From a bacterium (GTDB lineage: Bacteria > SAR324 > NAC60-12): a stretch of 17,127 nt of DNA. Below the pieces are notes generated by a model that was given only the letters and a program-made list of their open reading frames with translations, was not told the DNA's origin and did no database searches. Shown here piece by piece: positions 7,949 through 15,413 of this stretch (its first letter is position 1; every line of letters starts with the position of its first letter). Position numbers and translations under genes: made by a program. The DNA lies in NCBI GenBank assembly GCA_965233585.1, contig CBDDTI010000624.1, positions 1-17,127 on the forward strand, in the 5' to 3' direction.

Positions 7949-8779
7949 GTCTGACTACTAAATAAAATCATGTTGCGTGACGCGAACAAGACGAGAAGAG
8001 TATGAAACCAACTAACAAAACAGAATGGCGCATCTTACCTTATAAACGAGTTCCTCTGGATTGTTGTGAAATACTCCTACCTTGATTCAATAAGAATATG
8101 TAGCTTGAATATTTCTTTATAAAATACGTTAAGGGTCGCAAATTCTCGGAAGTTATCCGCAAAAAACACAACTTGCAAGTTTGTGCAAATTATGTGCAAT
8201 GTAAATTGACGCCTCGTTGGGCGGCAGGTATCTTTTGCAGGTTGCAGGTTGCAGGTTGAAATTTGATTATAACTGGAAAACCGCTGGCACTAAAAATAAT
8301 TGATAACCCAAATACTGGTAAGGGGTTCTTACATAAAGTAATTGGCGTCTTGCACAGGGTTTCATCGGTTCAGTCCTGGGTTCAGTCTGACATAACCTGC
8401 GATCAGGCGCCACTATTTTTTTTTCGCGGCGGGGAGGAACGCCTGATACAATTACTTGACTATTCGTCTGCCACCCCCTAATTAAAATATCTGTCAGCGA
8501 GAATGTCGGCGATGCCATCTCCAGATAAGAATTACCGGAAGTCGCATCGTGGGCGGGAATTACACAAGGCACGGACAGCGTGAATTTACATGCAGTGCTG
8601 TACAGTACGGCCGACAAAAATATGGTTTATTTTGTAAAACACGTCCTCCTGTTTCGTTCGTAATGAGTAAGTTTCAGAAGCAGAACTTGGTGAAGGTACC
8701 GTTCCACTTTGTAAGCCAACAAAAAACGTTAACAAGGAGTTCTGCAGCGGTTTTTGATGTGGCGTTGGCTGTACGGCCC

Positions 8780-8900
8780 TATTGAAATTAATTGATATAT
8801 AGCGCTCTTGCCCAATCCCGTCGGTAGCACGGCCAAAACATCTCTCCTATGGCATACGATTCTATGAATGCATTCTATTTGTTCATCTTTGAGAGCTTTG
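8780..8900 (-). pseudogene. RecQ-type SF2 helicase, motif 0/Q and Walker A (second part of the split fragment)
   Basis: KALKDEQIECIHRIVCHRRDVLAVLPTGLGKSAIYQLI; DVLAVLPTGLGKS is 8842-8804. Missed by the ORF track. Confidence 0.9.
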
Positions 8901-9829
8901 TACGGTAGCCCATATCTGCAAACACAACAAACAACAACACATCGTCAAATCAAAATTTCGTGTTTACTTGAGTTTCGGGTTTAGTTTTATTTTACATTAA
9001 CACTTGGTGGTATCATCATATGTTTTTAGCTTGTTCCAGGTTCTCGTTAGCGGGCTAACATGTATTAAATGATTTAGGAATCCAGCGTTCGAAATTCTGT
9101 TCAATTTAAAACCTAGAGTCCCCAAATAAAGGAACCAAAGGAAAGATGGGTGACAGGAAGTTCAAAACCATTAAACTGTTGACTGTTCTTAGGAGAACTT
9201 TGAAGTAGGATCTCAGTTCTAATTTTCTTTAACTGTAAGACATTGGCCGTCTCTTTTAAGACTAATATAGTACAGTGTATGTGCCTTTTTCTTTAAAGTT
9301 CTAGATGTTGAAGTTAATTTCGAGAAAACATCCGGTATTTCCCGTTGAGAAATTTCTATCTCTTGTACTACCTAGCTAGGAATGTGATAATAACACCTTA
9401 TTATCCAATTTCCGCTGTCTTATCTGTCAAGTGATCACTTACGACATGCCAGATCATGCTTAAGTTGAGCTGTTTATTTTACTCCTGAATTGAAACAAAC
9501 TTGCTATGATCTAATGACAGATTCTGGGAAATGTTGTAAAAGTAATTAATGCATGTGTCAATTGAATACCCATATAATTACAGACTGCATATTTATCCGT
9601 GTATGTAATTCTAATGAAGACTTGTCATCTTTAGCTTTCTATTAGTCCCCAGTAGAGATGAATGGTATTGCTTCTACTGTCTAATTAGCAATCCATATGA
9701 AGTTGTCAAGACAGCTTTGAGAATTCTGTGTGAAATGCCATGATCATATAAACAGTGTTCCAGCTTGAGTCCTCTAGCTCACAATTTTCTCCCTGAGAAT
9801 GTTTCCTGTCAAAGTCATAGAATGTTTGA

Positions 9830-10615
9830 TTACAGTGTTGATTAATGGGAACATCATGATCAAAATCAAAAGATCTTTTTTGTTTGCATTCCTTGGATTG
9901 GTTCTTGTTAAGTCGGCCATAGTTTTGCAGGCTTGTCATAGGCAAAATTATATTAAATGTCTCCCCTTGCTAGTAGTTCAGCCCTATCTGTCTGCCCAAC
10001 TTCTTGCCAGTATTCTTAGACTTTTTATGACAGCCCAATGTGAATTATTCTATAGGTGTTAATACAATTAAATTTCACATGCATGCCACATTTGTAAACA
10101 GAACCATGCAACTTCATGGTCTTTATGAACCATTTACCATTTCATCAACTATAATATCCTTTACCTGTGCTGTCTGGGGTATTGTGCATTATTTAGGCTA
10201 AAAAATGTTCTTCATGAGGGGGGAGCTTGAGCATGTATTACTCTTAACCCATTTCTTTGGCAAAGCACAGAAAGCACTCCAAGAAGGCCTCCAAGTTTGG
10301 TTCCTATAGATCTGGGTACAGGGAGGCATATTTAGCTTTTCTAATTTCAGCTCAGTGGCAATTGGGTCTAAAATTTCATTATTTGTATTCTTCTCAAACT
10401 GCATTTAATTTAATATGTGAACCATAAAGAATATTTTCCCAGTTTGGATTACATTCAGTGACTACTGGATATGATAGCCCCAAGATGCTGATTATTTCAC
10501 ACCTTGTGTCTCTTGTAGCAGTTCCAGTAAATGCAAGTACTGGCACTGAGGGGGTTAAACTAATTTGTAAGGATACCAGTCTTTGCAAATGCAGGGTGTC
10601 CATTACCATGGTTAT
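9830..10615 (-). pseudogene. Decayed RecQ-type helicase, motifs III-VI
   Basis: VPVLAFTGTAT (motif III), ILGL...NPNWENILY, PQTAQVKDIIVDEM, VLFTNVACM (motif V-like), RIIHIG and EYWQEVGQTDR (motif VI, YWQEVG at 10012-9995). Many stops and frameshifts. Confidence 0.8.
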
Positions 10616-11639
10616 TTAAAAAATTAGGAACAAAATAGGAGAATCACTACTACTTTAATGAACAAAGATAACCTCTCTACACCCCATTTACTATCCCAAT
10701 CAACTGCTTTGATCCAGCAACATTGACAGAAATTTACATATTCATAACTATGCAGTCATTTTGACTTTAAAGTTGTAATTCTTCTTAGCTCTCATTGTGA
10801 TAACAACATCAGTTTGGTTAACACTGGAATATAAAAAGGAAAAATAACTGAAGAGCAATTGTCAAATTAACATTTGAATATTTCGTCAGAAACAAGATTC
10901 TACACTGAATTCATCAATTTTAATTCCCTGGTTTTAACAGTAGAACGGAACTACTCCAGTTTCATGTCACTCAAACTATGCTGTTCTTTCAAAACTTCAA
11001 AATCAAGGCAGCAGACAAGAGCAAACAAAACAAATCCATAGTGAAGTTTAAAATGACAGATCACCCTCAGTTTGATGTTTAAGTGACAGTAATCTGCTCA
11101 CATTTCATACTGTTTATCAATGATAGTTCACCCTTAATTTGACTTTCTTTTCTTTGATGAACATCATCTTAATGACATGAGCATCTTCCAGTTTCAAATT
11201 TGATCACATAACAGTTCAGTGTAAGGAAATGTCTGGCTATATTTGATTTATTTTCAAAGGGTTTTTGCAGAATACTGTATCATCTGTTGACTTCTACAAA
11301 GTCACATGAACTACATTAATTTATAGATACAACAGGTGCAGTAGAAAATCATTGAATAACATGTTAAAAGACGTATATGTAAGCTATGCATGACCAGAAA
11401 TCCACTAAGCAACAGAACACAACAAGTGTACTGTTCCTAATATTTTATTTGTTAATTTTGAACATCAAAGTCATGACACAAATAGCTTTATTCTACATCT
11501 ACATCTGAAACACCATCTGCAGGCTATAAATGCATTTTCAATTTTTAGCACACGCTGCATAATTAGCCATAAAAATAGGACATATGGGAAAAACACTGGA
11601 CACTTTGCTGGCCTGAATGTGACCACCTAGGCTAGACAT

Positions 11640-11672
11640 TTTGGGAAGTCGCTTACAGGAGGTTCGACTGTA
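11640..11672 (-). mobile_element. Solo TA|CAGTCGAACCTCCTGTAAGCGAC terminus (pogo/Tc1-mariner-like MITE remnant)
   Basis: TA plus CAGT end on the minus strand; partner not found. Confidence 0.4.
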
Positions 11673-11844
11673 CATATATAGTTTCAAGAGCATAACTTTA
11701 AGAATTCTCCACTTCCAATAAACAATAATTACAGTAATCAACAAATCAAGTCACTTGCCCAAATACTGTGTGGTGAAGAGTTGGATATTGAGTGGAATAT
11801 TTAACTGAAAATAATTATTTCATTGGTACATAAAAATACATGTA

Positions 11845-14040: not shown

Positions 14041-14310
14041 AGAAAATATACTGCAAAGGTTGGTCAAGACAACGTGAACATAGGCGTTGTTACAATATTT
14101 CGGCTGGCCAACAGGTTTAAACCTGAAGAAGGCTGGTGTTGGCCAGCCGAAATATTGTAACAACGCCCATGTTCACGTTGTCTTGACCAACCTTTGCAGT
14201 ATATTTTCTATTTTTAAAGTTTTTTGGTCTGGTCACGATCTATTTTGATCCAACGTAGAGCAAGTTTTGATCGTACACGGTTTTTGCAGTGGTTTAATCC
14301 TTAAAAAAGT
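14041..14310 (+). mobile_element. Very short Penelope-like insertion with 5' inversion
   Basis: 12-bp TSD CTTATTTCTGGT (14029-14040, 14311-14322). 14040-14113 is inverted to 14137-14210, followed by a ~100-bp unpaired tail. Contains a hammerhead core. Confidence 0.8.
14121..14158 (+). ncRNA. Minimal hammerhead ribozyme core, canonical C3-G8, stem I nearly lost
   Basis: CTGAAGA-A-GGCTGG-TGTTGG-CCAGCC-GAAA-TA-TT; only AC/GT remains of stem I. Confidence 0.65.
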
Positions 14311-14611
14311 CTTATTTCTGGTGCACACACAACTCGAAATGATTTAAGTTTTATTCGGTTAAGAGTTACAGCAACTTTACATGCCAGTCATCGGAAGGGG
14401 CGAATGTCTACAGAAAATGATACTTATGATCTTAAGATCTGCAAGCTGAACTTATCGTGCCAGGTGAATGGGATCATTCGATATAAACATACCGCTTCCC
14501 TCCGGCCTACGCTTCCACGTTCTAGTCTTCCTGCCGTGAGTTATCGCCGTATTGGACACCTGCCTCGTTTTCATGCTCTCGTACCGAGGCTCACCCGAGC
14601 GGCCCGCCAAT

Positions 14612-14830
14612 ATTTTGTGTTGTTTCGACAAGTTTGTGTTGTTTCGATAATTTTGTGTTGTGTTTCGACAATTTTGTGTTGTGTTTCGATAATTTTGGTT
14701 TGTGTTTCACAAATATTGATTTGTGTTTCAAAAATATTGTGTTGTGTTTCACAAATATTGACTTGTGTTTCACAAATATTGACTTGTGTTTCAAAACTTT
14801 TGTATTGTGTTTCAAGAATTGTTTGTTGTG
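14612..14830. repeat. Subterminal 21-bp tandem array (TTGTGTTTCACAAATATTGAC-like)
   Basis: About ten imperfect units abutting the right TIR. Explains the 7-aa periodic ORFs. Confidence 0.92.
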
Positions 14831-14852
14831 TTTGCAGATATGGGCCACCGTA

Positions 14853-14920
14853 GCTTTGTGAACAAAACTCTCAGTAGAAGCATTTAAAGCTGACAAAAAC
14901 TCGCTCTCTTCGCTCGCATC
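14853..14920 (-). pseudogene. First part of the split RecQ-type helicase (ASEESEFLSALNASTESFVHKA)
   Basis: In frame with 8900-8780 once 8901-14852 and one TSD copy are removed. Confidence 0.75.
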
Positions 14921-15413
14921 ATCAGACGTCGTGATGGAATTCGTCAGCTCGCGGGATTTCTTTGATCGGAAGTCACACGGCCACACAGGAAACCAATTAA
15001 TGGCTTAGTTCTAAGTATCTTTTGTTTCTTGACCAATCAGAGAAAAGTCCAGATTCTGGACTAGCAACAGACAAATAGTCAAGTAATTGTATCAGGCATA
15101 CCTTCCCGCGGCGAAAATAAAGGGACGCCTGATCGCAGGTCAAGTCTAACACGGAATGTCAGTCTTACTGGTGCTATACAAGGGACGAATTTCATCATTT
15201 GCTTGAAGCAGATATCGAACTATTAGTAACCTTAACTTGAACATTCCTTGCTTCCATAGTAATAGGTGTCAGCTTAGTTAAATGTTAGGTTATTCATTCG
15301 ATCCGCTATCTAAGTATAGTTATCGATCGAAACGATGAGACCAGTGAAATCTCTTCAAAGCCATCTGGATGGCCGCTCCACTATGGTTGCCGAAAAGTAG
15401 CAAAATTTGACAA

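What the first reader, a model, noticed from the sequence alone, without database searches (positions are those of the whole stretch)
8393..15142. Hidden AcademH-like helicase transposon whose RecQ gene is split 6 kb apart
Seen: inward-facing ~75-bp TIRs with TA ends and an 8/9-matching 9-bp TSD. Removing 8901-14852 gives a continuous minus-strand frame ...EFLSALNASTESFVHKA|LKDEQIECIHRIVCHRRDVLAVLPTGLGKSAIYQLI. Known: AcademH transposons encode RecQ-like helicases, have YR ends and make 9-10-bp TSDs. Inference: an internally deleted ~0.8-kb member that ties the TAACCTGCGATCAGGC MITE family to AcademH. The helicase motifs are absent from the ORF track.
Basis: partly seen in the sequence, partly recalled or inferred. 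Interest (0 to 1): 0.8.

Follow-up and report, generated by a model that had tools for sequence, protein, structure and literature searches.

The report
Coral helicase-transposon remnant split by insertion
A short dead copy of a jumping gene in coral DNA, cut in two by a second jumping gene, keeps the first part of a helicase gene and so shows which larger helicase-carrying transposon family it came from; it is ordinary genome debris, correctly spotted.

Summary
Window 8393-15142 is one TIR element with ~78-bp inverted ends (TAACCTGCGATCAGGCG...) and a 9-bp target duplication (AGTCTGACA/AGTCTAACA). It is split by a nested 5,950-bp non-coding TIR element (8902-14851, 8-bp duplication AGCTTTGT). 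Uninterrupted ~0.9-kb copies on two other contigs of the same assembly confirm the empty site.

The DNA is coral host DNA inside a contaminated bacterial genome bin. The element keeps only about 75 codons of a RecQ-like helicase. The start codon is lost and a 14-bp deletion shifts the frame.

Longer relatives in coral metagenomes carry the same terminus and promoter-like region. They hold a full helicase gene (one intact 610-aa ORF) starting about 200 bp from the end. Two of them also hold the 3' part of a DUF6589 gene on the opposite strand.

So this is an internal-deletion derivative of a helicase-plus-DUF6589 cut-and-paste transposon making 9-bp duplications (6 of 12 TIR pairs 9/9, 3 more 8/9). 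This fits what I could read about AcademH (helicase, 9-10-bp duplications). Membership is not proven, because no Academ transposase reference could be compared.

Verdict: new member of a known kind, modest interest.

The parts
8384..8392 (.). left copy of the 9-bp target-site duplication of the outer element (AGTCTGACA)
   Evidence: 8 of 9 identical to 15143-15151
8393..8470 (+). left terminal inverted repeat of the outer element (TAACCTGCGATCAGGCG ... GCCTGATACAATTACTTGAC)
   Evidence: the same terminus is seen in 32 contigs of G000
8471..8745 (+). left subterminal region of the outer element; by inference the region upstream of the parent's second (DUF6589) gene; the deletion breakpoint lies near 8735-8750
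   Evidence: Conserved in C267, C732 and C443 at 87-90%. Longer relatives diverge from the short form after ...ATSKT. The link to DUF6589 is inferred, not shown.
8750..8893 (-). second part of the helicase remnant: LKDEQIECIHRIVCHRRDVLAVLPTGLGKSAIYQLI (8786-8893, Walker A / motif I), then a frameshifted continuation (8750-8779)
   Evidence: (PF00270 positions 3-36, E 4e-5)
8894..8901 (.). left copy of the 8-bp target-site duplication of the inner element (AGCTTTGT)
   Evidence: 8 of 8 identical to 14852-14859
8902..14851 (.). nested 5,950-bp non-autonomous TIR element (termini ACGGTAGCCCATATCTGCAAACAC...); no recognisable coding capacity; itself holds nested repeats
   Evidence: I21, 34 nt, 97%. 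(absent from paralogous copies). (no Pfam family at E<=0.01 in its ORFs of 55 aa or more, except one weak DUF4777 hit)..
14612..14833 (.). subterminal 21-bp tandem repeats of the inner element (10.8 copies)
   Evidence: also present at the end of the partial copy on C692
14852..14859 (.). right copy of the 8-bp target-site duplication of the inner element
14852..14944 (-). first part of the helicase remnant (TNSITTSDDASEESEFLSALNASTESFVHKA); the codon aligned with the relatives' ATG reads ACG
14945..15067 (-). promoter-like 5' region of the helicase gene (two CCAAT boxes at 14993 and 15033; ACTTCCG motif), conserved between subfamilies
   Evidence: Alignment of nine termini. Promoter function is inferred from the motifs, not tested.
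15068..15142 (-). right terminal inverted repeat of the outer element
15143..15151 (.). right copy of the 9-bp target-site duplication (AGTCTAACA)

Best explanation
Window 8393-15142 is a dead, non-autonomous copy (792 bp once the insert is removed) of a cut-and-paste DNA transposon family of a stony coral, probably an acroporid.

The parent element, inferred from relatives, has this layout: TIR, then a CCAAT/ETS-type promoter, then a RecQ-like helicase gene reading inward. A DUF6589 gene, the presumed transposase, reads inward from the other end. Integration duplicates 9 bp of target.

An internal deletion removed everything between codon ~75 of the helicase and about 345 bp from the other end. 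What remains is the two termini that the transposase needs, so the copy could be moved in trans. Even smaller derivatives of 60-85 bp with perfect 9-bp duplications exist in the same assembly.

After insertion the copy decayed: ATG became ACG, a 14-bp frameshift arose, and the TSD is now 8/9. Later a 5,950-bp non-coding TIR element landed in helicase codon ~32, duplicating 8 bp.

The lineage fits the published outline of AcademH (helicase plus 9-10-bp TSD).

Shown: the anatomy, the copies, the TSD length, the longer relatives with the full helicase, and the helicase-DUF6589 linkage in relatives.

Inferred: that DUF6589 is the transposase, that it is of Academ type, and trans-mobilisation.
For: Anatomy and empty site.

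Copies in G000: left-arm matches on C267, C732 and C443 at 87-90% identity.

TSD census of all 12 TIR pairs found by a terminus pattern:
- 6 pairs are 9/9 (C50, C270, C491, C629, C732, L034).
- 3 pairs are 8/9 (C267, C397, C624).
- 1 pair is 6/9 (C511).
- 1 pair has an exact 8-bp duplication (C575).
- 1 pair is a chance pairing inside C575.

Longer relatives:
- Database ORFs P0015, P0017 and P0025 run from the translated TIR through helicase motifs I, Ia and DEVH.
- P0027 joins DEVH to the other terminus, so it is a different deletion.
- 15 coral-metagenome loci were found; 13 match the 172-aa helicase query to residue 160 or beyond.
- L023 has an intact 610-aa ORF with DEAD (E 4.5e-19) and Helicase_C (E 2.3e-15) that starts 190 bp from the terminus.
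- The terminus alignment shows a shared TAACCTGCGATCAKGC end, an inner GCMTGATACAWTTACTTG motif, CCAAT boxes and the ATG.

DUF6589 linkage:
- L031 and L033 have the same type of terminus and helicase exon 1. On the opposite strand they have the DUF6589 3' part. By tblastn to the C607 gene the E-values are 4e-5 and 1.5e-4. By PF20231, positions 344-410, they are 4e-5 and 3.8e-4.
- On contig C607 a paralogous helicase lies convergent with a four-exon DUF6589 gene (PF20231 E 5.6e-15, above the cut-off).

Helicase family:
- It is RecQ family but not an orthologue of any one cellular RecQ. E-values: WRN 3e-24, E. coli RecQ 2e-23, RecQ4 1e-19, RecQ5 2e-18, BLM 3e-16, RecQ1 2e-15.
- 142 database representatives score E<=1e-30 against P0053, and the best 150 are all 645 aa or shorter.
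- Named members come from Montipora, Branchiostoma, Hydractinia, Neogobius, Ptychodera and Glandiceps.

Literature: passages in PMC10045372 state that AcademH makes 9-10-bp TSDs and encodes a helicase.
Against: - No copy with both termini and both genes was found. G000 holds none and the metagenome contigs are at most 7.3 kb.
- The DUF6589 matches in L031 and L033 are each below Pfam's cut-off, and those loci share only about 72% of the terminal 120 bp with the window's family.
- No TIRs were found around the C607 gene pair.
- DUF6589 was not shown to be a transposase. It has no solved relative and the spliced protein could not be folded.
- The only piece of a published Academ RNase H profile that I read (states 16-40) showed no obvious likeness to the DUF6589 motifs. 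That is not a test.
- One of the 12 TIR pairs has an 8-bp duplication, not 9 bp.
Confidence: 0.75

Rival explanations
1. The helicase-plus-DUF6589 elements are a cut-and-paste lineage of their own, not members of Academ. The window's copy is then a deletion derivative of a so far unnamed superfamily that only resembles AcademH in carrying a helicase and making 9-bp duplications.
For: No Academ transposase could be compared. As of 2017 the Academ RNase H-like domain was reported to match no Pfam family (PMC5751038 passages), and DUF6589 carries no functional label in Pfam. The read part of the Academ profile consensus showed no obvious match.
Against: Helicase plus 9-10-bp TSD is exactly the published signature of AcademH (PMC10045372 passage). 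DUF6589 is reported as enriched in rust fungi (bioRxiv 10.1101/2025.10.24.684071 passage), and Puccinia graminis is the only fungus with Academ entries in Repbase in Table 1 of PMC5751038. Pfam added DUF6589 after 2017 (recalled), so the 2017 statement does not exclude identity.
Confidence: 0.15
2. A MITE of an unrelated 9-bp-TSD superfamily, such as Mutator-like, captured an exon of a host RecQ-like gene in the manner of a Pack-MULE. The helicase would then say nothing about the parent transposon.
For: A 9-bp TSD is also typical of Mutator-like elements (established knowledge, recalled). The fragment is short and lacks a start codon.
Against: - The full helicase gene sits at the same distance from the same terminus. 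TIR start to the start of the helicase match is 201 bp in L021/L022 and 212-239 bp in L026, L027, L031 and L033, whose matches begin at query residues 6-15. In L023 the ORF starts 190 bp in.
- Several different deletion derivatives exist.
- A second family, C39:246-2237, has TIR TACCCTGGTCCCAGAGGC and a 9/9 TSD, and also keeps a helicase 5' piece near one end.
- No MULE domain appeared in any Pfam scan.
Confidence: 0.07
3. It is a cellular RecQ-family gene of the coral broken up by transposon insertions, with the inverted repeats and duplication unrelated to it.
For: NCBI names for the closest annotated proteins are 'ATP-dependent DNA helicase Q1', 'wrn-1-like' and 'RecQ-like'.
Against: The fragment lies inside a TIR-bounded, TSD-flanked, multi-copy unit. 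There are no further helicase exons anywhere in the window: only 1 of 94 ORFs of 55 aa or more hits DEAD. The protein is equidistant from all cellular RecQ paralogues.
Confidence: 0.02

Closest known systems
AcademH lineage of the Academ superfamily of eukaryotic DNA transposons (Kojima 2020, Mobile DNA 11:15; seen only as a citation and through passages of PMC10045372 and PMC10799480)
   Same: Cut-and-paste TIR element; 9-bp target-site duplication (AcademH: 9 or 10 bp); carries a superfamily-2 helicase with DEAD and Helicase_C domains; found in animals; short non-autonomous derivatives.
   Different: The transposase could not be compared. Here the linked gene is DUF6589, which no text I could read equates with the Academ transposase. 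The window copy itself has lost all but about 75 codons of the helicase.
MITEs and other internal-deletion derivatives of autonomous DNA transposons (for example Ds from Ac)
   Same: Both termini kept, interior deleted, many copies, TSD of the parent's length, mobilisation in trans inferred.
   Different: This one keeps the promoter-like region and the first codons of the parent's accessory (helicase) gene. That allows the parent to be identified.
Cellular RecQ helicases (RecQ, RECQ1, BLM, WRN, RECQ4, RECQ5)
   Same: The same helicase core. Best solved matches are WRN and E. coli RecQ (E about 1e-24). There is a weak RecQ zinc-binding match in the C607 paralogue (E 3e-4, below the cut-off).
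   Different: No RQC or HRDC domain was detected. The protein is about 550-610 aa with its own C-terminal region, is multi-copy, sits next to a TIR, and is not orthologous to any one cellular paralogue.
KolobokH and Helitron, the other helicase-carrying eukaryotic DNA transposons (named in PMC10799480)
   Same: They carry a helicase.
   Different: Kolobok makes TTAA duplications and Helitrons have no TIRs or TSDs and use a Pif1-type helicase (both recalled). Here there are 78-bp TIRs, a 9-bp TSD and a RecQ-type helicase.

Membership tests
AcademH (Academ superfamily) | target-site duplication of 9 or 10 bp (PMC10045372 passage) | tested here: met
   Window copy 8/9. Of the 12 TIR pairs: 6 at 9/9, 3 at 8/9, 1 at 6/9, 1 with an exact 8-bp duplication, 1 a chance pairing. 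The second family on C39 is 9/9.
AcademH (Academ superfamily) | element encodes a helicase | tested here: met
   Met for the family, not for this copy. L023 has an intact 610-aa DEAD + Helicase_C ORF 190 bp from the shared terminus. The window keeps about 75 decayed codons.
AcademH (Academ superfamily) | Academ-type DDE (RNase H-like) transposase | not testable with these tools
   No Repbase sequences are available, and Kojima 2020 and Yuan & Wessler 2011 are not held. The linked gene is DUF6589. Only 25 of the 465 states of the published Academ profile were read.
   Termini here are 5'-TAACCTG / TGACCTG and TACCCTG in the C39 family. I found no text giving AcademH termini.
Non-autonomous TIR element (MITE-like deletion derivative) | TIRs plus TSD, no intact ORF, multiple copies, collinear with the ends of a longer coding element | tested here: met
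Cellular RecQ orthologue | clear best match to one RecQ paralogue, RQC/HRDC domains, single-copy locus | tested here: not met
   E-values run from 3e-24 to 2e-15 across WRN, bacterial RecQ, RecQ4, RecQ5, BLM and RecQ1. Only DEAD, Helicase_C and ResIII pass cut-offs in L023 and P0053. The unit is multi-copy and inside TIRs.
Mutator-like element / Pack-MULE | MULE transposase in autonomous relatives; captured host gene fragments | tested here: inconclusive
   The 9-bp TSD is compatible. No MULE domain was found in any scanned ORF, but no full-length parent was recovered.
hAT (considered for the inner element only) | 8-bp TSD, hAT transposase or hAT-type termini | tested here: inconclusive
   The 8-bp TSD is met. 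There is no coding capacity and only one other partial copy in G000. The superfamily is left open.

The most novel reading that the evidence does not exclude
DUF6589, a Pfam family of unknown function, is the transposase of a helicase-carrying cut-and-paste lineage spread over cnidarians, hemichordates, amphioxus, fish and fungi. This lineage is either the true identity of AcademH or a sister superfamily. The coral families show that about 30 bp of each terminus suffice for transposition (60-bp elements with perfect 9-bp duplications). They also show that the termini carry the promoter of the helicase gene.
Probability: 0.5. Interest if true: 0.4.

Novelty: new member of a known kind. Interest (0 to 1): 0.3.

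Why it matters
This mainly matters for annotation.

- It gives a parent to a family of coral MITEs (TARCCTGCGAnCAGGC ends, 9-bp duplications).
- It shows that many 'RecQ-like / Q1-like / wrn-1-like' gene models in coral and other invertebrate genomes are transposon genes, not DNA-repair genes.
- It adds a case where a DUF6589 gene travels with such a helicase. That would give this domain of unknown function a role.
- It flags that the assembly holding the window is a bacterial bin with several megabases of coral DNA.

It does not open a new biological question.

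Tried and rejected
- **Full-length parent in G000.** tblastn with the helicases and DUF6589 pieces found only the distant pair on C607. The PF20231 search of G000 also found only C607. PF20231 was found in 0 of 44 genomes of the same bacterial family.
- **Genome-contig scan with P0015.** It returned one irrelevant bacterial locus.
- **Viral contigs.** The helicase alignment gave 0 relatives and the 20-nt terminus pattern gave 0 matches.
- **Protein search with the plus-strand ORF of the left arm** (window 8486-8785), hoping for the start of the second gene. 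All 15 hits are read-throughs of short elements.
- **Representative search with P0053**, looking for helicase-transposase fusions. The best 150 are all 645 aa or shorter.
- **ESM Atlas on the DUF6589 exon.** The best score was 0.83 (DUF3435), below the level that counts.
- **PDB sequence search with DUF6589 exons.** It gave only a weak C2H2 zinc-finger hit (E 0.075) and nothing else.
- **TIRs around the C607 pair.** None were found.
- **Papers.** Kojima 2020 and Yuan & Wessler 2011 are not held. The supplements of PMC10799480 hold no DUF6589, PF20231 or Academ entry.
- **Laying four coral runs**. One contig each in X7 and X8 joins 8369 to 15172, with unknown letters between. This may be an allele or paralogue without the element but is too weak to use. 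Parts without cover say nothing.
- **GIY-YIG idea.** My impression that ORFs at 5599-6551 are GIY-YIG (Penelope-like) got no Pfam support at E<=0.01.
- **Helicase tree.** A tree against AcademH and cellular RecQ was not made, because neither set of reference sequences could be obtained through the tools.

Full report
**1. Where the window comes from**

The window is the whole of contig C624 of an assembly (G000) of 12.0 Mb in 747 contigs. A few large contigs are densely coding: 79-87% of their length lies in ORFs of 150 aa or more. Several megabases of small contigs have less than 30%.

The window itself has tandem repeats, nested inverted repeats and almost no long ORFs. Only 1 of its 94 ORFs of 55 aa or more has a credible Pfam match.

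The closest named proteins to the helicase discussed below come from the corals Montipora foliosa and M. capricornis. Public runs that hold parts of the stretch are labelled coral or coral reef metagenome. I therefore read the window as coral host DNA binned with a bacterial genome.

**2. The observation**

Outer element:
- The terminal inverted repeats are real. Arms 8417-8470/15068-15121 are 89% complementary and 8389-8429/15106-15146 are 78%. The aligned ~80-nt ends differ by one 3-nt indel.
- The 14-mer ACCTGCGATCAGGC occurs 3 times in the window at up to 2 mismatches, against 0.04 expected.
- The flanks AGTCTGACA (8384-8392) and AGTCTAACA (15143-15151) match at 8 of 9 positions.

Inner element:
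- Its ends are 34 nt and 97% complementary.
- It is flanked by AGCTTTGT on both sides (8894-8901 and 14852-14859). Its most likely extent is therefore 8902-14851, with an 8-bp duplication.

Reading frame and empty site:
- Two uninterrupted copies, C267:3786-4724 and C732:1117-2027, are collinear with the joined sequence across the junction.
- Contigs of four coral runs run from 8901 directly into the sequence that follows 14859.
- The peptide matches the first 36 positions of Pfam DEAD at E 4e-5, below the cut-off.

**3. What the outer element is**

It belongs to a multi-copy family. The left arm matches C267, C732 and C443 at 87-90% identity. A terminus pattern finds TIR-like ends on 32 contigs of G000.

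That pattern yields 12 TIR pairs:

| Result | Pairs |
|---|---|
| Perfect 9-bp duplication | 6 (C50, C270, C491, C629, C732, L034) |
| 8 of 9 | 3 (C267, C397, C624) |
| 6 of 9 | 1 (C511) |
| Exact 8-bp duplication | 1 (C575) |
| Chance pairing | 1 (inside C575) |

Three of the perfect cases are elements of only 60-85 bp, made of little more than the two ends.

A second family on C39 (246-2237) has TIR TACCCTGGTCCCAGAGGC and a 9/9 TSD. It also keeps a helicase 5' fragment near one end.

**4. The parent**

Database ORFs from environmental assemblies begin in the translated TIR. They continue through helicase motifs I, Ia and DEVH (P0015, P0017, P0025). P0027 joins DEVH directly to the other terminus, so it is a different deletion.

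A scan of JGI metagenome contigs gave 15 loci:
- L021 and L022 are 87% identical to the window's right arm. They carry exon 1 up to DEVHTVATW followed by a GT intron donor.
- L024 and L030 show the intron with a canonical acceptor.
- L023 has an intact, intronless 610-aa ORF with DEAD and Helicase_C, starting 190 bp from the terminus.

An alignment of nine termini shows four shared features. They are the end TAACCTGCGATCAKGC, an inner motif GCMTGATACAWTTACTTG, two CCAAT boxes with an ACTTCCG motif, and the ATG of the helicase. In the window that ATG position reads ACG.

The short form diverges from the long forms just after ...GRTANATSKT. The window copy also has a 14-bp deletion that shifts the frame after ...YQLI. 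So the window element is an internal-deletion derivative, not a gene-fragment capture.

**5. The second gene**

L031 and L033 share the terminus type and helicase exon 1. Downstream, on the opposite strand, both have ORFs homologous to the C-terminal part of a DUF6589 gene:
- tblastn to the C607 gene gives E 4e-5 and 1.5e-4.
- PF20231 positions 344-410 give E 4e-5 and 3.8e-4, each below the cut-off.
- The two loci are about 80% identical to each other.

On contig C607 of the same assembly, a paralogous helicase (about 30% identical to P0053 over 421 aa) lies convergent with a four-piece DUF6589 gene. That gene matches PF20231 at E 5.6e-15. I found no TIRs there.

Two earlier notes of this scan, from fungal genomes, describe the same helicase-DUF6589 pairing and also call it AcademH-like. 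They are unchecked and rest on the same missing paper, so I count them as a lead only.

**6. The helicase**

It is RecQ family but about equally far from all cellular paralogues:

| Solved structure | E-value |
|---|---|
| WRN | 3e-24 |
| E. coli RecQ | 2e-23 |
| RecQ4 | 1e-19 |
| RecQ5 | 2e-18 |
| BLM | 3e-16 |
| RecQ1 | 2e-15 |

By contrast, 142 database representatives match P0053 at E<=1e-30. All of the best 150 are 645 aa or shorter, and no fused transposase appears among them.

Named members come from Montipora, Branchiostoma, Hydractinia, Neogobius, Ptychodera and Glandiceps. A patchy, multi-phylum, multi-copy spread of this kind is what a transposon gene shows.

**7. Comparison with what is known**

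- Passages of PMC10045372 state that AcademH makes 9- or 10-bp duplications and AcademX makes 3 or 4 bp, and they link the difference to the helicase and the nuclease.
- Passages of PMC10799480 name AcademH, KolobokH and Helitron as the helicase-carrying DNA transposons.
- A table in PMC11370458 lists Academ-1 repeats at 0.17-0.23% of three coral genomes.

The family here meets the two AcademH features that I could test: TSD length and helicase. The third feature, an Academ-type transposase, could not be tested. The defining papers are not held. In 2017 the Academ catalytic domain was said to match no Pfam family (PMC5751038 passages). I could read only 25 of the 465 states of that paper's profile. 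That AcademH helicases are RecQ-like, and that Pfam added DUF6589 after 2017, are my recollections and come from no call.

**8. The inner element**

It is 5,950 bp with 33-34-nt TIRs, subterminal 21-bp tandem repeats and an 8-bp duplication. It has no recognisable coding capacity and only one other partial copy in G000.

It holds a ~310-bp high-copy repeat at 13388-13697. In the four runs many contigs skip 13387-13696. Its superfamily is left open.

Its perfect duplication and near-perfect TIRs, compared with the outer element's 8/9 duplication, fit a later insertion.

**9. Verdict**

The core of the inference, a hidden deletion derivative of a helicase-encoding transposon, is supported by relatives. 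The name AcademH is likely but unproven. 'RecQ gene' overstates a decayed remnant of about 75 codons. This is a new member of a known kind and of modest interest.

Noticed in passing
G000, whole assembly: The assembly that holds the window is a mixed bin. A few large contigs (up to 1.07 Mb) have 79-87% of their length in long ORFs. Several megabases of small contigs have under 30% and look like coral host DNA.
   Followed up: partly
G000:C50:4273-4332, C270:1301-1385, C629:5732-5816: Elements of only 60-85 bp, made of the two termini TAACCTGCGATCAGGCG..., each with a perfect 9-bp target duplication. They suggest that about 30 bp per end suffice for transposition.
   Followed up: partly
G000:C39:246-2237 (L017): A second non-autonomous family with TIR TACCCTGGTCCCAGAGGC and 9/9 TSD ACCTTGCCA. 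It keeps a helicase 5' fragment (motifs I and Ia) near one end.
   Followed up: partly
G000:C607:6105-12010 (L015): A distant paralogue of the helicase lies convergent with a four-piece DUF6589 gene that contains a C2H2-like finger. It may be an autonomous-type element, but no TIRs were found.
   Followed up: partly
window 13388-13697: A ~310-bp high-copy repeat (19 hits of 300 nt or more in G000 to this part of the element, at 80-98% identity) is nested in another repeat inside the inner element. Many contigs of all four laid runs skip 13387-13696.
   Followed up: no
window 5599-6551: An inverted repeat with 320-nt arms, 99% complementary. Its ORFs (...CWDCNGFYIGKTKRRLHDRKTEH...) reminded me of the GIY-YIG domain of Penelope-like elements in head-to-head arrangement. 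There was no Pfam support at E<=0.01.
   Followed up: partly
window 350-1250 and G000:C443:5054-7095: The TGTGGACC-rich tandem-repeat block of the window is up to 98% identical to part of a 2,042-bp TIR element (ends CTCTCTCCTCCGCAGAGGC). That element is nested in the C443 copy of the helicase MITE with a 9-bp duplication ATTAATTGA.
   Followed up: no
window 1500-1516: A lone TIR-like end, TAACCCGCGATCAGGC, with no partner found in the window.
   Followed up: no
L023 against L024, L030, L021: The same helicase gene is intronless in L023. In the other loci it has a canonical GT...AG intron directly after DEVHTV(A/E)TW, about 950 bp long in L024 and L030.
   Followed up: no
L025:2201-4105: An intact 634-aa piggyBac-type transposase ORF (PF13843, E 7e-85) lies about 700 bp upstream of a helicase exon 1 in a coral metagenome contig. 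It is probably a neighbouring or nested element.
   Followed up: no
window 8369 / 15172: One contig each in two coral metagenome runs joins 8369 to 15172, with unknown letters between. This may be a form of the locus without the outer element.
   Followed up: no
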